A DNA stretch of 64,000 nucleotides, from the sequence record KJ190157, one strand, 5' to 3'. The number at the start of each line of letters is the position of its first letter. Position 1 is the stretch's first letter. Shown here piece by piece: positions 7,940 to 58,064 of this stretch. The position numbers were made by a program, and so were the translations under genes. The notes below the pieces were generated by a model that had not been told where the DNA came from, made no database searches, and was given only the letters and a program-made list of their open reading frames with translations. The DNA is from Escherichia phage vB_EcoS_FFH_1.

Positions 7940-8152
7940 ATGATCCGCAATGTTTCCCTTGCCCGTTCGAAAGGCTTTAAGCTGGTGGATGTTAACACGT
8001 TCGAGCGTGAAGATTGTAAAATCGAATATGTAGCACGTAATAAGAATGCCTTTCGTGTTACAGAAAAGAAATTTGACAAGCGCGGCAACGTGATCGCTGA
8101 AACGGTTAAACACTTTGCCACCTTTTACGCTGCGTTTCGTGGGGTGTTATAA
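7940..8152 (+). CDS. hypothetical protein
   Basis: 70 aa, RBS AAAGGAG. Confidence 0.5.
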   Translation: MIRNVSLARSKGFKLVDVNTFEREDCKIEYVARNKNAFRVTEKKFDKRGNVIAETVKHFATFYAAFRGVL

Positions 8153-8153
8153 A

Positions 8154-8498
8154 ATGGTTATTTATGAGGGCAACCGCTTTGTTGCTAATTGCCGCCCTGC
8201 ATTGCTAGCAAATTACTTAAATCAGCTTTCACCAGCTTATAAGGGCGTTATTAATATTTATGAAGGCAAGGCGCATTATAAAATCAATGCGGTCGTTGCC
8301 CGTGAACTAGCGTTTCAATTTTTGACCTTTGCATCTTGTGACGTTCAGGTCATGGGTGAAGCGTTAATTGCAGAAAATGAAGATGATTTTATTAATATTT
8401 TTCGCAAGATATGCACCGAGCGCCTGATAATGAAAGGCGCTTATATTCAATCCACTGCGGATAGTATTGAAACAGCGTTTCGAAAGGTGGCGCAATGA
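8154..8498 (+). CDS. hypothetical protein
   Basis: internal ATG of table ORF 8115..8498 chosen to avoid overlap. Confidence 0.45.
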   Translation: MVIYEGNRFVANCRPALLANYLNQLSPAYKGVINIYEGKAHYKINAVVARELAFQFLTFASCDVQVMGEALIAENEDDFINIFRKICTERLIMKGAYIQSTADSIETAFRKVAQ

Positions 8499-8698
8499 GC
8501 AATAAAATTGTTGTAACCAAAATCAGTACAATGGTTGATGTTTTTTACGTGCCCGATACGCCGGAAAACCGGCAAGCGGTCGAGCGTGGCGAGTATGATA
8601 AAGTGATTTATGATCACGATGGTTATTATCAGCATTTGGTCGATTCCTATGGGGAAGAGGAAAAGATCACGCATCAATTACCGGAGGATGGTTTATGA
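8495..8698 (+). CDS. hypothetical protein
   Basis: 67 aa, ATGA overlap with upstream gene. Confidence 0.5.
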   Translation: MSNKIVVTKISTMVDVFYVPDTPENRQAVERGEYDKVIYDHDGYYQHLVDSYGEEEKITHQLPEDGL

Positions 8699-8808
8699 AA
8701 CGATGGTTTAATCACTGGTACAAGCGGTTTTTAGTACGCCGTCGCAAATCTAGACATCAAGATGAGTGGCGGGAGTGGGCAAAGCGTAACGGTTGCCCGC
8801 TACTCTGA
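8695..8808 (+). CDS. small basic peptide
   Basis: 37 aa Trp/Arg-rich, ATGA overlap, terminator follows. Confidence 0.3.
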   Translation: MKRWFNHWYKRFLVRRRKSRHQDEWREWAKRNGCPLL

Positions 8809-8812
8809 AAAC

Positions 8813-8837
8813 GACGGGGATTAGCTCCCCGTTTTTC
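8813..8837 (+). terminator. rho-independent terminator
   Basis: ACGGGGA...TCCCCGT followed by TTTTT. Confidence 0.7.
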
Positions 8838-8950
8838 CATGCCTCCAGTTAAATACCCCCTTGTTTAGTATCCCCACCAAAATTAAACGCGTTAGAATGC
8901 GATCTAGGACGTTTTAGCGGTATATTAGAATTATTCACTACATAGGAATA

Positions 8951-9058
8951 CTGTATATTTATACAGTAGGATAAGCTGTGGATAAGTCTGTTAATAACGC
9001 CTCAAAATGGCTAGGATTCTGTCAAGTCAAATCGTGCTGTTAATAAGTCTGTGGATAA
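8951..9058. repeat. right arm of large imperfect inverted repeat with two DnaA boxes
   Basis: TGTGGATAA at 8978-8986 and 9050-9058; palindrome ACTGTATATTTATACAGT at 8951-8968. Confidence 0.8.
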
Positions 9059-9084
9059 CTTAAATAATAGTGTTTCTCACTTCC

Positions 9085-9240
9085 ATTCTTAAATGCAAAT
9101 CATTATCATTCGCATTTCACTTTCTAAATGAGAATCATTTCACTTCTTGAATAGTTCTCATTTCACTTTTTAAATGCGAATTATTATCATTCTCATTTCG
9201 CTTTTTAAATGAGAATAATTATCATTCGCATTCGCATTCA
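9085..9240. repeat. degenerate direct repeats (TTAAATG[A/C]GAAT...ATCATTC units)
   Basis: about five 25-35 bp units with internal dyad symmetry, read directly. Confidence 0.6.
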
Positions 9241-9242
9241 GG

Positions 9243-9275
9243 CGAGCGGGGGCAATTGCCCCCCGCGCTTTTGTG
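9243..9275 (+). terminator. hairpin/terminator
   Basis: GCGGGGGCAATTGCCCCCCGC followed by TTTTG. Confidence 0.55.
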
Positions 9276-9871
9276 CAAATCCGACATTGCTCCACGGGTG
9301 TTACGTGCGGGCATGTATGTGCGAATCCGACAATTTTTGGTAGTGTGCAAATCCGACCCGAAAAATTTTATAGTGTGCAAATCCGACAATGAATTTTCCC
9401 AAAAACTCCAGCAATCCGATGCTGCGCATCAATCCTGTGGAATTAGCTAGAATATGTGCAAATCCGACATGGGTTTATTTGTGCGAATCCGACAAGATTT
9501 TTGTGACTTTGATTGGAGGGCGTGTGATTGTAGGGGTTTGAGGAGAAGATGAGAGAGTGAGAGAAATTTGAGGGAACTGTGAGAGGGGCGCAGGATTGGT
9601 GCGGAGCACCTGATTTGCGGGGATTTTGGAGGAGATGTGAGATAACTTGGGTTAATTTGAGATAGGTGCAGAAAAAGCGAAATTTTATTAGCAAAATGGG
9701 GCAAAATAGCTTGACAAGTGAAAATTTCTGTGGCTCTAAAAACTCAGGCAATCATGGGCCTTCGGCCCGAAATAATGCTACTATTTTCAGGAGAGTAAGA
9801 GTTCCTAAAAACTTAGGCGTTTGTGCAAATCCGACCATAAATTTCTAGAAATGCAGTGTGCAAATCCGACA
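9272..9871. repeat. eight dispersed direct copies of TGTGC(A/G)AATCCGACA
   Basis: copies at 9272, 9318, 9346, 9374, 9455, 9480, 9822, 9857, all in the same orientation. Confidence 0.85.
9505..9665. repeat. polypurine (GA-rich) tract with strong strand asymmetry
   Basis: about 160 bp almost entirely G/A/T on the plus strand with GAG(A)G reiterations. Confidence 0.6.
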
Positions 9872-10334
9872 GTAATTTCTGGAAATGTGTTTTCAAAAAA
9901 TGTCTTCTAGAAATAACCGCCCTCCCTATAACCGCCCTGTATTAACCGCCTATTGCTGGAGTTTCTAGGAACAATGAAAACCGCCTGAGTTGACTGGAGA
10001 AACAGATTTAAAGTTTAATGTAAACTCTAGAGTTAGTGCTCAACTATTCCTAGAAACTTAGGAGTCTACTAGAAAGTGTTGTGCCATCCTAGCAGATGAG
10101 CGGCAACAGGTGTATCATCTTGAACACAGATATTGCCTTTAAATATTTTTATGTATTTTAAAAGTAAATAGTCCCCCATTTCATGTGAGATTTCCTCGTG
10201 GGGCGCGTGAGTATTACGGAAGACTTAGTAATTAGATCTATACTCGTGCTGTCGCAACGTATAGACGTAATACTAAGTGTAATAATCATCGCCCCTAGAG
10301 TTCAAAACAAGAGTTGTTTTTAATCTATGAGATT

Positions 10335-10381: not shown

Positions 10382-10738
10382 TTATACATCTCCTTCGAGA
10401 TTGGTATTGGGATCGTAAATTTTCTTGGCTCCTGTATTTAATAGGAATCGTTCTGCAAGTTGTGGGTGAATATCAAAGAACTCTGTGCATCCTTCGAATC
10501 CCTTTAAATTACAGCGGTATTTCTTAAAGTAGATATGTGCAGCGGCTTCTAGATCTCTAGGATTATGGGTTTCATAGATCCCATACACGTATAAATCGTC
10601 AAAACCACGATAAACTATCTTATCTAAGTTTAGTGTTTGAATCCTATTATGTGGATTCATACTAATACCGATCTTTGTTCTCTTAGGGATCTTCGTCAGA
10701 TCCCTATTTGCAAGAATATATACTTTATATAGTGACAT
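10382..10738 (-). CDS. hypothetical protein (possible GIY-YIG/T5orf172-like)
   Basis: 118 aa; weak resemblance only. Confidence 0.45.
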   Translation of the reverse strand: MSLYKVYILANRDLTKIPKRTKIGISMNPHNRIQTLNLDKIVYRGFDDLYVYGIYETHNPRDLEAAAHIYFKKYRCNLKGFEGCTEFFDIHPQLAERFLLNTGAKKIYDPNTNLEGDV

Positions 10739-11456
10739 TCTTTCTAGCCTTTAGATAGATTCCTTTAGATGCTAGATAAATATACGTAGCAAGGAATGAA
10801 GATGTAGATCCTGTTTCCTCAAGAGTAATAGATCCTTTTGCATAACGCTTAGTTCTAGGAGCCTGGTTAAGCACAAGTGCAGTGAGACTACCTAATCCTA
10901 GCGCATCCATTAAACGTTTGAAGGAGTCCTTTTCATCGTGGATAGCATATAGAATGTAATCTTCCGCTGTAGTTAGTTCTATATCACGATGATGTGCCAC
11001 TGCAATCCGTGCTACTACAGCTCCAATCGTTCTATAAATATCTTCAAACGTAATGCTAGTTTCAAAAGCTAATGCTGGAAGATGATCGAACTTACATTTC
11101 TTAGGTGGGATAAGAAGTTGCTCAGGATACGCTTCTAACGCTTCTCTAGCGGATGTTTCTCTATACGCTGGGAGAGGTTCATCAATAATAACATGAATAT
11201 AGTTTCCCATGTGACCTTTAGCAGTTGGATCTAAAGACTTGAGAAGTTTATTCATATCAACATAAGAGTAAGCAAGGTCAGCTTTTGCAGCTTTGTTATC
11301 GTACTTAATCTTACCACCTTCCCACCTAGCTGGGAACATCTCACAAACAAACATTACTGCATGTTTCTCTTGAGCAGTTAGATCAGAGAAACAGCGATGA
11401 TCAGCCCCCTTAGCGAGGGCTAGAATATTCTTAAATTTTACTGCCAAATCTTTCAT
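10725..11456 (-). CDS. hypothetical protein
   Basis: 243 aa ORF. Confidence 0.55.
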   Translation of the reverse strand: MKDLAVKFKNILALAKGADHRCFSDLTAQEKHAVMFVCEMFPARWEGGKIKYDNKAAKADLAYSYVDMNKLLKSLDPTAKGHMGNYIHVIIDEPLPAYRETSAREALEAYPEQLLIPPKKCKFDHLPALAFETSITFEDIYRTIGAVVARIAVAHHRDIELTTAEDYILYAIHDEKDSFKRLMDALGLGSLTALVLNQAPRTKRYAKGSITLEETGSTSSFLATYIYLASKGIYLKARKNVTI

Positions 11457-26823: not shown

Positions 26824-26944
26824 ATTACCTCCATTAAGTCTTTTAAATTAACCTAATGTGGATGAATTTTGTTATACATATATTATGTACCTTTATACAG
26901 AAAAACCCCAGACTACTTATTCAATAGCTGGGGTTTGTTATTAA

Positions 26945-27259
26945 TTACAGATCGGGGCGTTCATCTTCGAAACAGCCTGAGCTAATTCCTTCTCCGAATC
27001 CTACAAAGCCATCAAATTCATCATTTGAGATGCCCATAATCATTGCTTCCATTTTCCTAATCTCCGAAATTTTCATGCCTGCTTTACTATTCTTATAATA
27101 TTTGCGAGGGTTCCCGCACATCCAACAAGAACAGATGCAAGGAGTAGTAGTGATAATACCTAACCGCTTAGGGCTTTCTTCATGTGGGAAGACTGTCCAA
27201 TACTTCTTGCGGTTGTTCTTCACACGTTGCCGGTGATGGCGTCTTAATGCTCGATCCAC
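26945..27259 (-). CDS. hypothetical protein
   Basis: 104 aa; basic N-terminus, Cys cluster. Confidence 0.5.
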   Translation of the reverse strand: MDRALRRHHRQRVKNNRKKYWTVFPHEESPKRLGIITTTPCICSCWMCGNPRKYYKNSKAGMKISEIRKMEAMIMGISNDEFDGFVGFGEGISSGCFEDERPDL

Positions 27260-27340
27260 ACATTTCTCCTAAAACTTGGGAGATAAACGGAGTTTGCTCG
27301 ACTACCTTGCGTAGCTGGGAGAAATCGTATCCAAACCCCA

Positions 27341-27709
27341 TTACATCGCCTGAGTAAATGTACGACTAATAACGTCGTTCTGTTGTTCACGAGTCAGTGC
27401 ATTAAATCGAACAGCGTAGCCAGAGACACGGATGGTCAACTGAGGATATTTTTCAGGATGTTTCTGCGCATCCAAAAGCTGATCACGGCTTAACACATTG
27501 ACATTTAGGTGCTGACCACCTTCGATTTGAGGGGCGACTTCCACCTTAACTTCACGGAAGGCTTCGGGATCGAATTGTGGTGTGATACCTTCTAGATCTT
27601 CAACTAGAACTTTCTGTTTAAGTTCACCATTGTCGGAGTATAGCTGAATAATCTGATTTTCATGAACAAGGTTAATTACGCCAGACTTAAGATTTTGATA
27701 TGCTTTCAT
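27341..27709 (-). CDS. grcA: autonomous glycyl-radical cofactor (GrcA/YfiD-like)
   Basis: 122 aa; C-terminal [10 protein letters not shown]...[20 protein letters not shown] is near-identical to the E. coli GrcA glycyl-radical domain as I recall it. Confidence 0.75.
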
Positions 27710-27751: not shown

Positions 27752-27946
27752 CTATAGTTTACCACGATATACAGAAACTGTCTTACCAGTTTGGTTCATA
27801 ACGTATGCTACTTCATCTTCTTTTAAGAAGATTGCTTGATCTATTCCAGAAATAGCTATGCTTTTATTTCTGGGATTAAACCCTACGCTTTTACCAACAT
27901 GAATCTGCTCACCACCATCAGTGGACATTATTTTAACTGTTAACAT
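27752..27946 (-). CDS. hypothetical protein
   Basis: 64 aa. Confidence 0.45.
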   Translation of the reverse strand: MLTVKIMSTDGGEQIHVGKSVGFNPRNKSIAISGIDQAIFLKEDEVAYVMNQTGKTVSVYRGKL

Positions 27947-27983: not shown

Positions 27984-28059
27984 TGGTAGTTAGTAGTGGA
28001 TTTGAACCACTGTAGTCGCTCCGTATGAAGGAGGTGCATAACCACTCTGCCAACTAACT
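27984..28059 (-). tRNA. tRNA-Met(CAU) (or Ile2/fMet)
   Basis: hand-traced cloverleaf; T-arm AGTGG-ATTTGAA-CCACT; anticodon loop on plus strand GTATGAA; CCA encoded. Confidence 0.65.
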
Positions 28060-28155
28060 GTTATGTTTTACTAGACTAAGTAAGTATTCTTTATACTCTT
28101 TAGACCAATTAGCTTTTTTAAACTTTCCTGGACGCATAGTCTTAATTCCTAGATT

Positions 28156-28232
28156 TGGTACTCCGGGAGGGATTTAAACCCCCGATCTCTCGGTTATCAG
28201 CCGAGTGCTTTAGATCGCTAAGCTACCGAAGT
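28156..28232 (-). tRNA. tRNA-Ile(GAU)
   Basis: perfect anticodon stem CTCGG/CCGAG, loop TTATCAG. Confidence 0.7.
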
Positions 28233-28538: not shown

Positions 28539-28568
28539 TTGGTTTCCCTCTCATTAATTTATATAGAT

Positions 28569-28597
28569 ATTATAACAAGAAATAAGAGAGAAGGCAA
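28569..28597 (-). promoter_or_regulatory. T5-type early sigma70 promoter
   Basis: TTGCCT, 17 bp, TATAAT. Confidence 0.65.
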
Positions 28598-28602
28598 ATG
28601 AA

Positions 28603-28677
28603 TTTTTAAATTTGGTGCTCCCACCAGGAATCGAACCCGGTTCAGATGCTTACAAGGCAACTGCATCGCCAGCAATG
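28603..28677 (-). tRNA. tRNA-Thr(UGU)
   Basis: T-loop AATCGAA, D-stem GCAT/ATGC, loop TTACAAG; one anticodon-stem mismatch. Confidence 0.55.
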
Positions 28678-53023: not shown

Positions 53024-54898
53024 ATGAATCGTAATGAAGAACTAAAATATAAAGAAATGCAGGCGTTAATTAGAAACTGCAAAGAGATTATCGAAGGGTC
53101 AGCAGATGAAGAGCTGCTGTTTAATAATGCTAATAAACCCTCAGAACGTTTCCCTACACAAAGGGATATGCTTGCAGGTGAATTGAGTAAGTATCTAATT
53201 CTAGAAGAAATGCCTATCCAGATTCGAAATGCTCATATGATTGGGGATATTCATTTCCACGATGCTGATTATGCTGCATTAGGCATGACTAACTGTTGTC
53301 TGGTAGCTTTGGAAGATATGTTGAAGAATGGTATGAAGGTTGGTAATGCTGAAATTAGCACTCCAAACTCTATCACTACTGCGGCGGCTATTACTGCTCA
53401 GATTATCACTCAGGTTAGCTCCCATCAGTATGGCGGTACTTCTGTAGATCGCCTTGATGAAGTATTAGCCCCTTATGTTCGTAAATCCTATGACAAAAAT
53501 CATGCGTTTGCAAAACGTTGGACTAAGGATGAAGCCAAAGCATCAGTAATGGCTACGGAGATGACTGAAAAAGAAGTCTATGACGCTTGTCAGGGTTTAG
53601 AATATGAAATCAATACCATGTTCAACTCTAATGGTCAGAGTCCATTTATTACCTTTGGTTTTGGTCTAGGAACTTCCTGGGAAGCACGTCTAGTACAGAA
53701 AGCAGTACTGAAAGTACGCATGGATGGTTTAGGTATCAATAAACGTACAGCTATCTTCCCGAAACTGGTATTTGTACTTCGCGATGGCGTAAATATGAAA
53801 CCAGGAGATGTTAATTATGACATCAAGAAGTTAGCTATGAAATGTACTGCTGAACGTATGTATCCAGATTATATCAGCTATGACAAGGTTGTAGAAGTTA
53901 CTGGAGACTATAAAGTTTCTATGGGCTGCCGTTCATTCCTAGCTGCTGCAGAAGATGGTGAAACTGCTGGCCGTAATAACTTAGGTGTTGTTTCTGTAAA
54001 CTTGCCTAGAATTGCTATCGAAGCTGAAGGAAATATTGATCTATTCTTTGATTTGCTTGAGCTACGTGTGGATACAGCGTTAAAAGCATTGGAGTGGAGA
54101 GTTGATCGCTTAAAATACATCCAAGCTAAAGCTGCACCCATCCTCTATATGTCAGGAGCCTTTGGGTTACGCTTGGAGCCTGATGAATATGTATTCGATC
54201 ATTTCTATAACCGTGCTTCTGTATCTCTAGGGTATATTGGTTGCCATGAAATGCTACAGTTCATGTTCGGCAAAGATGTAGACACAATGTCAGAGACCTG
54301 CATCAAGTTTGTTCAGCGTGTATTGCAGTACATGCGAGATAGAGTCGATCAGAAGAAGGAAGAGACTAAGTTAGGTTATAGCCTGTATGCTACACCGTCA
54401 GAGTCCCTATGTGATAGGTTTTGCCGTTTAGACCGTGAATATTTCCCAGAGCATGAAGATATTCTGTCTAAAGGATACTACACTAACTCGCACCACCTTG
54501 ATGTAGAGCGTAAAGTTGCTCCTAACGTGAAATTTGATTATGAATCTAACTTTACGCCTATTGCTTCTGGTGGGTGCATTTCCTATGTAGAACTACCGGA
54601 TATGAAACGATTCCCAGATGCACTGGAATGGGTTATTAATTATGCTGCTAGTAAGGTTCATTACTTCGGTATTAATACCCCAGTGGATTCTTGTGGTAAA
54701 TGTGGATTCTTAGGTGAAACAATAGCATCCGAAGATGGATTCAAGTGCCCTATCTGTGGTAATCATGACCCCGAAACTCTTGAAGTAACTCGTCGAGTTT
54801 GTGGGTATCTTGGAAATCCAGGTGCTCGTCCGTTTAACCCAGGAAAACAACATGAGGTTATGGGCAGGGTGAAACATCAGGATATTCGAGCTAAGTAA
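53024..54898 (+). CDS. nrdD: anaerobic ribonucleoside-triphosphate reductase
   Basis: 624 aa; C-terminal Cys cluster and glycyl-radical motif RVCGYLG; TTGACA/TATAAT promoter and GAAGGAGGG RBS upstream. Confidence 0.9.
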   Translation: MNRNEELKYKEMQALIRNCKEIIEGSADEELLFNNANKPSERFPTQRDMLAGELSKYLILEEMPIQIRNAHMIGDIHFHDADYAALGMTNCCLVALEDMLKNGMKVGNAEISTPNSITTAAAITAQIITQVSSHQYGGTSVDRLDEVLAPYVRKSYDKNHAFAKRWTKDEAKASVMATEMTEKEVYDACQGLEYEINTMFNSNGQSPFITFGFGLGTSWEARLVQKAVLKVRMDGLGINKRTAIFPKLVFVLRDGVNMKPGDVNYDIKKLAMKCTAERMYPDYISYDKVVEVTGDYKVSMGCRSFLAAAEDGETAGRNNLGVVSVNLPRIAIEAEGNIDLFFDLLELRVDTALKALEWRVDRLKYIQAKAAPILYMSGAFGLRLEPDEYVFDHFYNRASVSLGYIGCHEMLQFMFGKDVDTMSETCIKFVQRVLQYMRDRVDQKKEETKLGYSLYATPSESLCDRFCRLDREYFPEHEDILSKGYYTNSHHLDVERKVAPNVKFDYESNFTPIASGGCISYVELPDMKRFPDALEWVINYAASKVHYFGINTPVDSCGKCGFLGETIASEDGFKCPICGNHDPETLEVTRRVCGYLGNPGARPFNPGKQHEVMGRVKHQDIRAK

Positions 54899-55578: not shown

Positions 55579-55741
55579 TCCAGAAAACATGCTTATTGAG
55601 CAATGGAACTTTGGTTATAATGCCGGTATAGCTACTTGTATTGCTAGATTGGATATGCTTATTAAGCAAGAAAAGGTACGCCCGGAGGAAGCAATTTTAC
55701 TCCGAAATATTATCGAAGGATTTAAGCAAGGAATCGTATAG
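55547..55741 (+). CDS. hypothetical protein
   Basis: 64 aa. Confidence 0.45.
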   Translation: MDFLNQSLKSNPENMLIEQWNFGYNAGIATCIARLDMLIKQEKVRPEEAILLRNIIEGFKQGIV

Positions 55742-56565
55742 TGCGTAGACTAATTATTATTAGCGGTGCGGGTTTGAGTGTTGAAAGTGGTGTACGAGCT
55801 TTTCGTACTGATACTGCTAGTGGTAAAGCATTGTGGGATGATTATAATCTAGAAGAAGTATGTAATATTCATGCCTTTCGTGGTAATTTTTATCATAAAA
55901 CCCATATGTTTTACAACAAGCGACGTGAAGAGTTAGAAACTGTTGAACCTAACCTTGCGCATCTTCGTATTGGTGAGTGGTATAAGAAATATCCGGGTCA
56001 AGTAGTAAATTTGACTACTAACATTGATGACCTTATTGAGCGTGCTGGTGTTCCACATAATGATATTCTCCACATTCATGGATACTTAAAGGAGGTTGTT
56101 GTAGCTGATAGCTACAATAGTAGTAATAAACGAATTATTGATGTTGGGTATAACTCTATTGACCCAGAGGATTATAAATGGGTTAAACCTAACGTTATCT
56201 TCTTTGGTGAGCATGCTCCAGCATATACAGAAATGTACAATGTTTTTGATGGTATTACCAGTCAAGATATGATCATTGTGGTTGGTTGCTCTAACCAAGT
56301 AATTAACTTCTACTGGGAATTATTTCCTGTTCTTAATTTGACTGCTGCCAAATTAATGGTAGTTAACTACTACGATAGTGCCCTAGCGGCAGAACCAGGC
56401 TATCAAGGTATGACTCGTAGTGAGATGTACCAGTTGGAAGATCGTGGTATTCCTTACTGGAGTAAAGGTGCGGTAGATGCTTTTAGTGACCCTGATTTTA
56501 TTGCTCGTGTGGAAGCCCATTTAGAGGGTAGACCTTACGTGCCAGGGAAACAAATATGTCCATAA
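55741..56565 (+). CDS. Sir2-like (sirtuin family) protein
   Basis: 274 aa, probable GTG start; N-terminal GAGLSVESGVRAFR matches the sirtuin NAD-binding signature. Confidence 0.65.
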   Translation: MRRLIIISGAGLSVESGVRAFRTDTASGKALWDDYNLEEVCNIHAFRGNFYHKTHMFYNKRREELETVEPNLAHLRIGEWYKKYPGQVVNLTTNIDDLIERAGVPHNDILHIHGYLKEVVVADSYNSSNKRIIDVGYNSIDPEDYKWVKPNVIFFGEHAPAYTEMYNVFDGITSQDMIIVVGCSNQVINFYWELFPVLNLTAAKLMVVNYYDSALAAEPGYQGMTRSEMYQLEDRGIPYWSKGAVDAFSDPDFIARVEAHLEGRPYVPGKQICP

Positions 56566-56738
56566 TTAAATCTGTGTATACACACCCTGATGATATATTT
56601 GTATGGGCGGACGGTAGTTGGTGCTATCGCTGTGAACTGTGGGAAATGGACTATAAATCCGATGACTATGGTGTCATATATGTTGATACGGCTGAGTATG
56701 ATACGTTCTTAGAAAGGAACAAAAATGGAAATAAGTAA
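56556..56738 (+). CDS. hypothetical protein
   Basis: 60 aa. Confidence 0.4.
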   Translation: MSIIKSVYTHPDDIFVWADGSWCYRCELWEMDYKSDDYGVIYVDTAEYDTFLERNKNGNK

Positions 56739-57231
56739 TACTCCAATTATTTTTCTAGACATTGATGGGGTGCTCAATTCGAGCATCTCCCACCATCATG
56801 CACCTGATGATGAAAAGATTTTCTTTGGAAGTGACTGGGTTTTCAAACCGCTTCTCAAGGCTTTTCAGGACTTTATTCGTCCTTCTCCGATAATGATTGT
56901 TGGGGTATCCTCATGGTTCTCTGTCAGGAATGAGATGGAGAACGTTCAGATTATGACCGGATTAGGTCTTATCGATCGTTTTCTTGGTACAACGGATTTT
57001 ACTGGTGGTGGGCTATCTAGGGGTAATTCTGTTCTTCGCTTCGTTGAAAAGCATAAGCTCAAACATTGGTGTGTACTGGATGACGCTGGTGCTATGATGT
57101 ATCAGTATCCAACGGTTATAGTCAATGGTAGAACTGGAATAAATCTTCAAGATTTAAAAGCTGTTAGCTATATGCTAGAATTTAGCCCAGATCTTGAAAT
57201 GTGTAAATCCTTACAACAATTTAAGGTGTAA
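56725..57231 (+). CDS. HAD-superfamily hydrolase-like protein
   Basis: 168 aa; HAD motif I IIFLDIDGVLN. Confidence 0.55.
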   Translation: MEISNTPIIFLDIDGVLNSSISHHHAPDDEKIFFGSDWVFKPLLKAFQDFIRPSPIMIVGVSSWFSVRNEMENVQIMTGLGLIDRFLGTTDFTGGGLSRGNSVLRFVEKHKLKHWCVLDDAGAMMYQYPTVIVNGRTGINLQDLKAVSYMLEFSPDLEMCKSLQQFKV

Positions 57232-57233
57232 AT

Positions 57234-57662
57234 ATGTTCAATAATGTATTCTCTAAAGAAGCTAACCCAATTTTGGTTAACTTTTGGCGTACTCTCCCAG
57301 CTAGCCTGTATAATGAGGCTATTAACTCTTTGAAAATATGGTGTGAGAATAACGAAATCTCCTTTGCTTTTAAAGATGATATTGATGAGGCTCCCTGTAT
57401 TGTTTTAATTGTGCAGGTAGAGGAGGGTCTTGAAGAGATTGTGGGCTGGAAAGAGTTAGACGAAATGGGCTTAGTTTTTGCGTTAAATTATAAACTGTTT
57501 ATGCCTGCTAAGCATCGCCTTGTTGTTAACTATAAAACTAGTGAATCTCCTGGTTTTCAGGTTAATGAACGTTATGGTTGGTCTTACTCACCGGAAGAAG
57601 TAAATGAGGGGATTCAGAAACTTCGACGTTTCGGGTATATGATCCCGGGTTTAACTGCTTAA
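57234..57662 (+). CDS. hypothetical protein, paralog A
   Basis: 142 aa; shares blocks with downstream gene. Confidence 0.5.
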   Translation: MFNNVFSKEANPILVNFWRTLPASLYNEAINSLKIWCENNEISFAFKDDIDEAPCIVLIVQVEEGLEEIVGWKELDEMGLVFALNYKLFMPAKHRLVVNYKTSESPGFQVNERYGWSYSPEEVNEGIQKLRRFGYMIPGLTA

Positions 57663-57671
57663 GGAGGCAGG

Positions 57672-58064
57672 ATGGAACAAGTATATTGGCGTCAGATTGA
57701 CCCTAGTTTGGTGAAACGTGCGGAGAAGCTGCTACAACGTTGGTTGGGGGTAAGGCAAGCCTCCTTCTCTTTTCCGGAGCAGCAAACGGATGATCCATGC
57801 ATTGGCGTTTTCCTGTCTGGATATGCCGGGGAATGGGAGATGGATTGGAATGAATTGTCCGCTATGGGTTTAATTGTTGCCCTAAATTTCTCTTTGTTCC
57901 ATCCACGTGGTTTGGCCATATGTCGTGTGCCTGATGACGGTTGTTCGCCCCATCTTTTACAGGTGGAAGATGATATTTGGGAGTACACTCCAGATATTCT
58001 CAAAGAAGCTAAAGAACAATTAAACCGTGTTGGGATTTATGTTCCAGGCCTAAATGATGAATGA
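57672..58064 (+). CDS. hypothetical protein, paralog B
   Basis: 130 aa; RBS AAGGAGG; terminator at 58091-58118. Confidence 0.5.
   Translation: MEQVYWRQIDPSLVKRAEKLLQRWLGVRQASFSFPEQQTDDPCIGVFLSGYAGEWEMDWNELSAMGLIVALNFSLFHPRGLAICRVPDDGCSPHLLQVEDDIWEYTPDILKEAKEQLNRVGIYVPGLNDE

What the first reader, a model, noticed from the sequence alone, without database searches (positions are those of the whole stretch)
27341..27709. Phage-encoded GrcA-like spare glycyl-radical domain, 25 kb away from nrdD
The 122-aa product ends with a segment near-identical to the E. coli autonomous glycyl-radical cofactor ([10 protein letters not shown]...[10 protein letters not shown]). The same window encodes a full anaerobic RNR NrdD (53024-54898) with its own RVCGYLG radical motif. 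A stand-alone radical domain suggests the phage repairs oxygen-damaged glycyl-radical enzymes (host PFL or its own NrdD) during infection. No NrdG-like activase was recognisable in this window.
Basis: partly seen in the sequence, partly recalled or inferred. Interest (0 to 1): 0.5.

Follow-up and report, generated by a model that had tools for sequence, protein, structure and literature searches.

The report
Phage copy of GrcA spare part
This T5-like phage carries a small, well-conserved copy of the bacterial "spare part" protein GrcA, which most likely lets host pyruvate formate-lyase keep working after oxygen damage during infection. The gene family and a T4 precedent are already known, so the finding is real but ordinary.

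Summary
Window 27341..27709 (minus strand) encodes a 122-aa protein. Its C-terminal 62 residues form a glycyl-radical domain of the pyruvate formate-lyase (PFL) type: 79% identical to the E. coli PflB C-terminus, 74% to GrcA, and with the RVSGYAV loop and radical glycine G97 intact. NrdD at 53024..54898 is real. No NrdG or PflA activase exists in the window or in the complete genome of the near-identical phage SP15.

The gene is the ortholog of T5.056. It is present in about 434 of about 441 close T5 relatives and is under strong purifying selection (dN/dS 0.04-0.17). It lies in an early transcription unit among the tRNA genes.

It belongs to a phage GrcA lineage that includes T4 Y06I (vs.6). 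Y06I was shown in 2001 to be activated by host PFL-activating enzyme and to rescue oxygen-cleaved PFL. Repair of the phage's own NrdD is not supported, because there is no detectable similarity to the NrdD radical domain.

One lead is new. In several unrelated phages (RaK2-like jumbo phages, Aeromonas phages 65 and BUCT695) grcA sits directly beside nrdD or nrdG. That fits a metabolic link in which PFL makes the formate that class III ribonucleotide reductase (RNR) uses as its reductant.

Verdict: already known; low-to-moderate interest.

The parts
27341..27709 (-). GrcA-like gene (ortholog of T5.056), 122 aa plus stop codon
   Evidence: The ORF is listed. It matches Pfam Gly_radical, NCBIfam GrcA models, PDB GrcA and PFL and full-length phrog_1209. 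The protein is 100% identical to SP15 gp057.
27530..27709 (-). Codons 1-60: phage-type N-terminal half (MKAYQ...), a divergent homolog of the GrcA N-terminal region that in YfiD helps bind cleaved PFL
   Evidence: hhalign of N-halves only: T5-like against other phage GrcAs gives E=4e-7, score 34.4, against a shuffle-null maximum of 16.9. Other phage GrcAs against bacterial GrcA give E=1.5e-24. dN/dS is 0.05-0.18. AF2 predicts five beta-strands at pLDDT about 72-76. The role of the YfiD N-half is from PMC8683613.
27344..27529 (-). Codons 61-122: PFL-type glycyl-radical domain
   Evidence: Identity is 79% to PflB 699-760, 51/62 to TdcE and 48/62 to GrcA. Foldseek's top hits are YfiD 6owr and PFL. 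dN/dS is 0-0.09.
27410..27430 (-). Codons 94-100: RVSGYAV radical loop; the G97 codon is at 27419..27421
   Evidence: Read directly from the sequence. The column is invariant in alignments A1 and A2. The heptamer is identical to the PFL-AE peptide substrate (PMC10665898).
27715..27720 (-). Shine-Dalgarno-like AGGGAG, 5 nt upstream of the ATG
   Evidence: Upstream sequence printed.
28543..28617 (-). Ortholog of T5 promoter P11, the likely start of the transcription unit that contains the gene
   Evidence: 69/75 identical to the annotated T5 P11. A consensus TTGCCT-17-TATAAT with TG lies at 28597..28569.
27984..28232 (-). tRNA-Met (27984..28059) and tRNA-Ile (28156..28232), lying between the promoter and the gene on the same strand
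   Evidence: ARAGORN. The same order is annotated in T5.
26901..26933 (-). Rho-independent terminator closing the unit, downstream of the T5.055 ortholog
   Evidence: 33/33 identical to the terminator annotated in T5.
53024..54898 (+). Phage NrdD (class III RNR, formate type). A separate gene, proposed to be metabolically linked to the GrcA-like gene, with no cognate NrdG
   Evidence: PF13597 E=3.9e-172. It is 54% identical to E. coli NrdD and keeps C175, M382, C384, G681 and the four zinc-site cysteines.

Best explanation

Proposed sequence of events:
1. It is transcribed early, from a T5 P11-type promoter within the tRNA region.
2. The 122-aa protein is activated by the host's pyruvate formate-lyase activating enzyme PflA, because the phage encodes no activase. 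PflA installs a radical on G97 of the RVSGYAV loop.
3. The C-terminal domain then inserts into host PFL (PflB, possibly also TdcE) whose own radical domain was cut at G734 by oxygen. [quoted passage not shown]
4. The N-terminal half helps to dock onto the damaged enzyme.

T5-type phages destroy the host chromosome within minutes. The cell can therefore no longer make new PflB or GrcA, so a cheap phage-encoded spare part keeps fermentative ATP, acetyl-CoA and formate production running in microaerobic gut-like conditions.

Shown here: the sequence identity, the intact motif, conservation, purifying selection, the transcription context and the absence of any activase. Inferred: activation by PflA, binding to cleaved PFL, and the physiological benefit.
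For: Sequence and structure:
- PFL-type glycyl-radical domain, with 39 columns of the GGQHLNVNV...[15 protein letters not shown] core invariant across 48 phage and bacterial GrcAs.
- RVSGYAV is identical to the 7-mer that PFL-AE binds and converts to a glycyl radical (PMC10665898).
- The AF2 C-half matches the YfiD NMR structure and the PFL radical domain.

Homology to a tested protein:
- 52% identity over the full length to T4 vs.6 (Y06I), including the shared MKAYQ start.
- The N-halves alone are significantly related.
- Y06I and YfiD are the two spare parts validated biochemically for PFL, using PFL-AE (PMC8683613; PMC13450708).

Evidence that the gene is functional:
- dN/dS is 0.04-0.17, with both halves constrained.
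- It is present at 80% identity or more in 434 phage records, against 441 records with a close A1 gene.
- It has a Shine-Dalgarno sequence and sits in an annotated T5 promoter-terminator unit.

Dependence on the host:
- No NrdG or PflA homolog and no plausible radical-SAM ORF exists in the window or the SP15 genome.
- T5 degrades host DNA within about 5 minutes (bioRxiv 10.64898/2026.04.02.716235).
Against: - There is no experiment on any T5-like ortholog, and no paper on it in the searched library.
- The protein scores below the NCBIfam trusted cutoffs for all three GrcA models (121 against 170). The validated T4 Y06I also fails (151 against 170).
- The T4 precedent is weaker than it looks as a proxy. 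The T4 radical domain is a near-exact recent copy of E. coli grcA (59/62 aa, 96% nucleotide identity). The T5-like domain differs from GrcA at 14 of 62 positions.
- The N-terminal half, which in YfiD is needed for binding cleaved PFL, is only weakly similar to bacterial GrcA when compared directly (hhalign E=1e-3).
Confidence: 0.8

Rival explanations
1. The protein is a spare radical domain for the phage's own NrdD. After oxygen cleaves NrdD at its glycine, it would replace the lost C-terminus, activated by host NrdG.
For: The same genome encodes NrdD but no NrdG. In RaK2-like jumbo phages, Aeromonas phage 65 and BUCT695, grcA lies directly beside nrdD or nrdG on the same strand. Reviews state that spare parts for glycyl-radical enzymes other than PFL remain an open possibility (PMC8683613; PMC13450708).
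Against: There is no detectable similarity to the NrdD radical domain (BLASTP E=6 against phage NrdD, E=8.6 against E. coli NrdD). The loop is the PFL-AE substrate RVSGYAV, not RVCGYLG. The protein lacks the four-Cys zinc site that precedes the NrdD loop. Even the grcA copies that lie next to nrdD keep the PFL-type [16 protein letters not shown] core. If the client were the phage NrdD, the domain should track phage NrdD and not host PFL.
Confidence: 0.04
2. It is still a PFL spare part, but its selected benefit is to secure formate, the reductant of the phage class III RNR, and not energy. GrcA and NrdD would form one anaerobic dNTP-synthesis module. This is a refinement of the best explanation and not an alternative to it.
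For: E. coli and T4 class III RNRs use formate as electron donor (PMC4390871). The phage NrdD keeps the Met382/Cys384/Cys175 set of the formate-type E. coli enzyme. grcA is contiguous with nrdD or nrdG in at least four phage lineages, with gaps of 2-75 nt. T5 excretes host nucleotides and makes its dNTPs de novo, so anaerobic replication depends heavily on NrdD flux.
Against: In T5-likes and T4-likes the two genes are about 17-25 kb apart. Most Vibrio T5-like phages have NrdD (328 Vibrio records) but few have GrcA (20 or fewer Vibrio records), so NrdD does not need it. Adjacency could simply reflect co-regulation of oxygen-sensitive functions or co-transfer. No whole-genome co-occurrence matrix could be computed.
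Confidence: 0.35
3. It is an inert remnant of a captured pflB/tdcE 3' end, or a decoy that titrates host PflA, with no repair function.
For: Only the last 62 residues resemble PFL. GenBank records label it variously as PFL, 2-ketobutyrate formate-lyase, acetyltransferase-like or RNR subunit. One record (GE_vB_N8) carries a frameshifted copy.
Against: Purifying selection acts on both halves (dN/dS 0-0.18). The gene is nearly universal in close T5 relatives. The N-half is homologous to the N-half of other phage GrcAs, and through them to bacterial GrcA, so it is not a bare PFL fragment. The frameshifted copy is in an 'UNVERIFIED' 51-kb record. T4 Y06I restores PFL activity and does not inhibit it.
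Confidence: 0.04

Closest known systems
Bacteriophage T4 Y06I (gene vs.6), a phage-encoded autonomous glycyl-radical cofactor
   Same: Both are stand-alone phage proteins of about 120 aa. They share 52% identity over the full length, including the MKAYQ start and the PFL-type radical domain, and fall in the same PHROG (phrog_1209). Y06I was shown to be activated by host PFL-AE and to rescue oxygen-cleaved PFL (PMC8683613).
   Different: The T4 radical domain is a recent patch from E. coli grcA: 96% nucleotide identity over the last 186 nt, against flanks of about 45-50%. The T5-like gene is long diverged, with third-codon-position identity of 45-56% to grcA, pflB and tdcE. T4 encodes its own NrdG and T5-likes encode no activase. 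The T5-like N-half has a distinct insertion/deletion pattern. The T5-like protein is untested.
E. coli GrcA / YfiD (TIGR04365; PDB 6owr)
   Same: Same size class and the same C-terminal domain (74% identity over 74 aa). RVSGYAV is identical. It is the best PDB sequence and fold match.
   Different: The N-terminal 50 residues do not align by BLASTP and relate only through intermediate phage sequences. The protein scores 121 bits against the equivalog cutoff of 170. The gene is phage-borne and driven by an early phage promoter, whereas host grcA is under host stress and anaerobic control (established knowledge).
C-terminal glycyl-radical domain of PflB and TdcE (formate C-acetyltransferases)
   Same: The last 62 residues are 79% identical to PflB and 82% (51/62) to TdcE. 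The tail [20 protein letters not shown] matches TdcE at 20 of 22 positions.
   Different: The protein lacks the roughly 700-residue barrel and the catalytic Cys418/Cys419. It covers only profile positions 683-744 of 744. It is therefore not an enzyme, and the GenBank names 'pyruvate formate-lyase' and '2-ketobutyrate formate-lyase' are misnomers.
grcA genes embedded in phage nrdD-nrdG clusters (Klebsiella phage RaK2/K64-1 group, Aeromonas phages 65 and BUCT695)
   Same: Same protein family, with the phage-type N-half and the PFL-type core.
   Different: There, grcA is contiguous with nrdD and nrdG. In the window it lies 25 kb from nrdD, in the tRNA region, and there is no nrdG.

Membership tests
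[quoted passage not shown] | Small stand-alone protein (about 120-130 aa) and not part of a full-length glycyl-radical enzyme | tested here: met
   The ORF is 122 aa with its own Shine-Dalgarno sequence, start and stop.
[quoted passage not shown] | C-terminal glycyl-radical domain above the Pfam gathering score | tested here: met
   PF01228 scores 66.4 bits against a cutoff of 22.2, E=3.7e-18.
[quoted passage not shown] | Radical glycine within the RVSGYAV loop (GrcA G102, PFL G734) | tested here: met
   G97 lies within RVSGYAV and the column is invariant in 4-sequence and 48-sequence alignments.
[quoted passage not shown] | Radical domain specifically PFL-like (about 75-80% identity to the last 60 residues or so of PflB) | tested here: met
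   79% identity over 62 aa, E=4e-33. For comparison, E. coli GrcA against PflB gives 76.6% over 64 aa.
[quoted passage not shown] | N-terminal half homologous to the GrcA N-terminal region | tested here: inconclusive
   The direct comparison is weak (hhalign E=1e-3, probability 18%). Homology is supported transitively: T5-like to other phage GrcAs E=4e-7, and those to bacterial GrcA E=1.5e-24.
[quoted passage not shown] | Score above the NCBIfam equivalog cutoff (TIGR04365 170 bits; GrcA2 145; GrcA3 158) | tested here: not met
   Scores are 121, 90.7 and 117 bits. As a benchmark, the biochemically validated T4 Y06I also fails (151 bits) while E. coli GrcA passes (234 bits). The cutoff therefore delimits bacterial equivalogs and not function.
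[quoted passage not shown] | Radical installed by PFL-AE, and activity restored to oxygen-cleaved PFL | not testable with these tools
   This needs EPR and enzyme assays. Only the identical PFL-AE recognition heptamer could be shown.
Formate C-acetyltransferase (PflB/TdcE), as many GenBank records name it | Full barrel of about 750 aa with catalytic Cys418/Cys419 | tested here: not met
   TIGR01255 scores 85.9 bits against a cutoff of 994, and only profile positions 683-744 are matched.
Spare part for class III RNR (hypothetical family) | Radical domain resembling that of NrdD (RVCGYLG loop, preceding four-Cys zinc site) | tested here: not met
   BLASTP against phage NrdD gives E=6 and against E. 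coli NrdD E=8.6. The protein has no Cys-rich site.
Glycyl-radical activase (NrdG/PflA) encoded by the phage | Radical-SAM CxxxCxxC protein homologous to NrdG or PflA somewhere in the genome | tested here: not met
   The best tblastn E-value is 0.2 across the window plus the whole SP15 genome. The only motif hit in the window is a 104-aa ORF with no Pfam match.

The most novel reading that the evidence does not exclude
Phage GrcA may be more than a generic fermentation helper. It could be the third component of a phage anaerobic dNTP-synthesis module made of NrdD, optionally NrdG, and GrcA. By keeping host PFL alive it would guarantee formate, the obligatory reductant of the phage class III RNR.

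T5-type phages would be the extreme case. They destroy the host chromosome, make all their dNTPs de novo, and depend entirely on pre-existing host PflA and NrdG to activate two phage-encoded glycyl-radical proteins.

The evidence is the repeated nrdD-(nrdG)-grcA adjacency in unrelated phages and the formate-type active site of the phage NrdD. I found no paper that states this link.
Probability: 0.35. Interest if true: 0.5.

Novelty: already known. Interest (0 to 1): 0.25.

Why it matters
The finding adds little as posed. Phage-encoded GrcA has been known since the T4 Y06I work of 2001, the T5 ortholog (T5.056) is in the reference annotation, and proteins 99-100% identical to this one are in public databases.

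Three things are useful:
- **Annotation.** Records call this protein pyruvate formate-lyase, 2-ketobutyrate formate-lyase, acetyltransferase-like or RNR subunit. It is a GrcA-type spare part.
- **A more independent test case.** The T5-like protein tests the spare-part mechanism better than T4 Y06I does, because the T4 radical domain is essentially a copy of the host's.
- **A testable idea.** The combination of no activase, two glycyl-radical proteins, rapid destruction of the host genome, and grcA-nrdD synteny in other phages suggests how virulent gut phages sustain DNA synthesis at fluctuating oxygen. That is relevant to phage performance in the intestine and in phage therapy.

Tried and rejected
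1. **Activase search.**
   - tblastn with T4 NrdG, E. coli NrdG and E. coli PflA against the window and the whole SP15 genome gave only noise (E 0.2 or higher).
   - The six-frame CxxxCxxC scan gave one hit in the window, the ORF at 26945..27259 (CICSCWMCGNPRK), two genes downstream. It is 104 aa, has no Pfam match and falls in PHROGs of unknown function. I rejected it as an activase.
2. **Direct NrdD spare part.** Rejected because the protein shows no similarity to NrdD radical domains.
3. **Decaying PFL fragment.** Rejected by dN/dS and by homology of the N-half. The frameshifted GE_vB_N8 copy is in an UNVERIFIED record.
4. **First hhalign run on N-halves.** It was contaminated by two T5-like sequences in the 'other phage' group. 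I repeated it with clean groups and column-shuffle nulls.
5. **NCBIfam cutoffs as a membership criterion.** I kept the result as 'not met' but benchmarked it against T4 Y06I, which also fails.
6. **TdcE-specific targeting.** The tail is most like TdcE, but other phage GrcAs carry similar ALT(R/P)EQQ tails. I treat this as weak evidence.
7. **Fold search for the N-half.** No PDB match beyond the radical domain.
8. **Literature.** Searches for T5-like phages combined with PFL or glycyl-radical terms, and for GrcA with nrdD and phage, found nothing relevant. The φR2-01 proteogenomics paper does not mention the gene.
9. **Per-genome co-occurrence of GrcA and NrdD across all phages.** It could not be computed with these tools. 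Only counts by identity band and by organism were available.

Full report
**What the window is.** The window comes from a T5-like phage (Demerecviridae, Tequintavirus). It is colinear with Escherichia phage SP15 (NC_048627) at 90-99% nucleotide identity. The 1.5 kb around the finding is 99.9% identical to SP15.

**Observation.**
- An ORF of 122 aa lies at 27341..27709 on the minus strand. Its ATG is preceded by AGGGAG.
- It matches Pfam Gly_radical (E=3.7e-18, 66.4 bits against a cutoff of 22.2) and the full length of phrog_1209.
- Among solved structures the best matches are E. coli GrcA/YfiD (6owr, E=1.4e-30) and then pyruvate formate-lyase (PFL) (E=5e-27).
- BLASTP gives 55/74 identities to E. 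coli GrcA, 79% over the last 62 residues of PflB and 51/62 to the TdcE C-terminus.
- The radical glycine is G97 in RVSGYAV (codons at 27410..27430). It aligns with GrcA G102 and PflB G734 and is invariant in a 48-sequence alignment.
tblastn with T4 NrdG, E. coli NrdG and E. coli PflA gives nothing below E=0.2, and there is no activase-sized CxxxCxxC ORF.
- Dwivedi et al. [quoted passage not shown]

**Context and evidence that it is a working gene.**
- The ortholog in T5 is T5.056, annotated 'putative acetyltransferase-related protein, match to IPR001150'.
- In T5 it lies in a unit that runs: promoter P11, T5.058, tRNA-Ile, tRNA-Met, T5.056, T5.055, terminator.
- In the window the P11 region is 69/75 identical at 28543..28617 and the terminator is 33/33 identical at 26901..26933. 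tRNA-Ile and tRNA-Met are in place.
- An extra 64-aa ORF (27752..27946, phrog_3909) sits between tRNA-Met and the gene.
- In the phage collection, 434 records carry the protein at 80% identity or more. By comparison, 441 records carry a close A1 gene, and NrdD is found in 390 records at 80% or more plus 155 at 60-80%. Both genes are therefore close to universal in E. coli and Salmonella T5 relatives.
- In Vibrio phages, A1 and NrdD are common (368 and 328 records) while GrcA is rare (20 or fewer), so NrdD does not require GrcA.
- Pairwise dN/dS among five T5-like orthologs is 0.04-0.17. The N-half gives 0.05-0.18 and the C-half 0-0.09, at dS 0.3-0.6.

**Family relations.**
- The protein is 52% identical over its whole length to T4 vs.6, which is Y06I, and shares its MKAYQ start.
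- I compared the N-terminal halves alone.
  - The T5-like group relates to other phage GrcAs (T4-like and jumbo phages) with hhalign E=4e-7. The score is 34.4, against a column-shuffle null of mean 9.6 and maximum 16.9.
  - Those other phage GrcAs relate to bacterial GrcA with E=1.5e-24.
  - The direct T5-like to bacterial comparison is weak (E=1e-3).
- The protein is therefore a divergent full-length GrcA and not an independently captured PFL tail.
- It falls below the NCBIfam equivalog cutoff (121 against 170 bits). So does the validated T4 Y06I (151), whereas E. coli GrcA scores 234.
- The AF2 model has mean pLDDT 70.
  - The C-half shows a helix, a beta-hairpin with G97 at its tip, and a second helix.
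  - Foldseek places the model on YfiD and the PFL radical domain.
  - The N-half is predicted as five beta-strands at pLDDT about 72-76, with no PDB match.
  - The two halves are joined by a low-confidence linker.

**Mechanism.**
- Knappe and co-workers showed that E. coli YfiD and T4 Y06I receive a glycyl radical from PFL-AE and restore activity to oxygen-cleaved PFL. The YfiD N-half promotes binding and activation, and the C-half replaces the damaged domain (PMC8683613; PMC13450708; PMC12338860).
- PFL-AE accepts the bare heptamer RVSGYAV (PMC10665898), and that heptamer is identical here.
- The phage has no activase, so host PflA must do the activation. This step is inferred.
- T5 destroys the host chromosome within about 5 minutes and makes its dNTPs de novo (bioRxiv 10.64898/2026.04.02.716235). 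The infected cell therefore cannot replace PflB or induce grcA. A 122-aa phage-encoded spare part is a cheap way to keep pre-existing PFL scaffolds working when oxygen intrudes. This too is inferred.
- Repair of the phage NrdD is not supported. There is no detectable similarity to NrdD radical domains (E=6 and 8.6), the loop is of a different type, and the protein has no zinc site.

**A lead beyond the finding.**
- grcA is physically joined to the class III RNR genes in several unrelated phages.
  - Klebsiella jumbo phage RaK2: nrdD 8039..9844, grcA 9920..10282, a small ORF, then nrdG 10612..11082, all on one strand (L042). K64-1, Munch, 7t3 and A4 show the same neighbours.
  - Aeromonas phage 65: nrdD, nrdG and grcA with a 4-nt overlap and a 1-nt gap between the ORFs (L072).
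  - A 225-kb IMG/VR contig: nrdD, nrdG, grcA (L093).
  - Aeromonas phage BUCT695 (Grimontviridae): grcA starts 10 nt after nrdD.
- These adjacent copies keep the PFL-type core.
- E. coli and T4 class III RNRs use formate as reductant (PMC4390871). The phage NrdD here is 54% identical to E. coli NrdD and keeps Cys175, Met382, Cys384, Gly681 and the zinc cysteines.
- A metabolic link is therefore plausible: PFL supplies the formate that NrdD consumes. I did not find this stated in the searched literature. I rate it at about 0.35.
- In T5-likes and T4-likes the genes are 17-25 kb apart, and adjacency elsewhere may only reflect co-regulation or co-transfer.

**Comparison and novelty.**
- The closest known entities are T4 Y06I, E. 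coli GrcA and the PflB/TdcE C-termini.
- The gene family, its presence in phages and its mechanism are established, and several T5-like records already name it GrcA. I therefore classify the finding as already known.
- Differences worth recording:
  - The T5-like lineage is long diverged from host genes, with third-codon-position identity of 45-56%. The T4 radical domain is a recent host-derived patch (96% nucleotide identity).
  - T5-likes lack any activase.
  - The N-half is the most divergent in the family.

**Verdict.** Confidence in the main explanation is 0.8 and interest is 0.25.

Noticed in passing
L004:25558-25920 (T4 vs.6) compared with L006:3067-3450 (E. coli grcA): T4 vs.6 is a mosaic. 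Roughly nt 159-338 of the gene are 93-100% identical to E. coli grcA, and over the last 186 nt third-codon positions are 95% identical. The 5' half and the flanks are only about 45-50% identical. This looks like a recent recombination patch from the host gene. It means the biochemically tested Y06I carries essentially the host radical domain (59/62 aa).
   Followed up: partly
L042:8039-11082; L072:7679-10351; L093:7247-10246; L014:34470-36947: grcA is contiguous with nrdD and/or nrdG on the same strand in RaK2-like jumbo phages, Aeromonas phage 65, a 225-kb IMG/VR contig and Aeromonas phage BUCT695. In several records the grcA gene there is annotated only as 'hypothetical protein', 'vs.6' or 'pyruvate formate-lyase'.
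   Followed up: partly
window 53024-54898 and the whole SP15 genome (L001-L003): The phage encodes a formate-type NrdD (54% identical to E. coli NrdD, with a conserved Gly loop and zinc site) but no NrdG anywhere. It must rely on host NrdG. So two phage glycyl-radical proteins depend on two host activases.
   Followed up: partly
window 26945-27341 (minus strand): Annotation conflicts just downstream of the gene. T5 calls one 103-aa ORF (T5.055). SP15 calls two short ORFs (26945..27121 and 27180..27341) that hit separate PHROGs (phrog_6828/4499 and phrog_31464). The long form (GTG start at 27259) contains a basic stretch followed by a Cys cluster, CICSCWMCGNPRK, which is the only CxxxCxxC motif in the window. 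It has no Pfam match and its function is unknown.
   Followed up: partly
window 27752-27946 (minus strand): A 64-aa ORF (phrog_3909, unknown function) lies between tRNA-Met and the GrcA-like gene. In T5 the tRNA-Met is followed directly by T5.056. This is a small accessory insertion within the same transcription unit.
   Followed up: no
window 27984-28059 (minus strand): ARAGORN finds a tRNA-Met (CAT) here. The SP15 RefSeq record does not annotate it and lists only tRNA-Ile in this stretch.
   Followed up: no
protein P0107: This cluster has 900 member sequences, all from short Logan assemblies. It has an E. coli-type GrcA sequence up to RFNSLT followed by the PflB-type tail KEQQQDVITRTFTQSM. 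It is either a grcA/pflB recombinant allele or, more likely, an assembly chimera across the near-identical [10 protein letters not shown] region.
   Followed up: no
GenBank records listed: Product names for the same 122-aa protein are inconsistent and mostly wrong: pyruvate formate-lyase, 2-ketobutyrate formate-lyase, putative formate acetyltransferase, acetyltransferase-like protein, ribonucleotide reductase subunit and hypothetical protein. Only a few records say GrcA.
   Followed up: yes
window 55741-58064 (plus strand): Downstream of nrdD lie a Sir2-domain ORF (55741..56565), a HAD_SAK_2 'Swiss Army Knife RNA repair' domain ORF (56725..57231) and two tandem paralogous DUF7415 ORFs, each with two repeats (57234..57662 and 57672..58064).
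   Followed up: no
L012:1480-1900 (Salmonella phage GE_vB_N8): The GrcA-like gene is broken by frameshifts in this record. The record is flagged UNVERIFIED and is only 51 kb, so sequencing error is more likely than a true pseudogene.
   Followed up: partly
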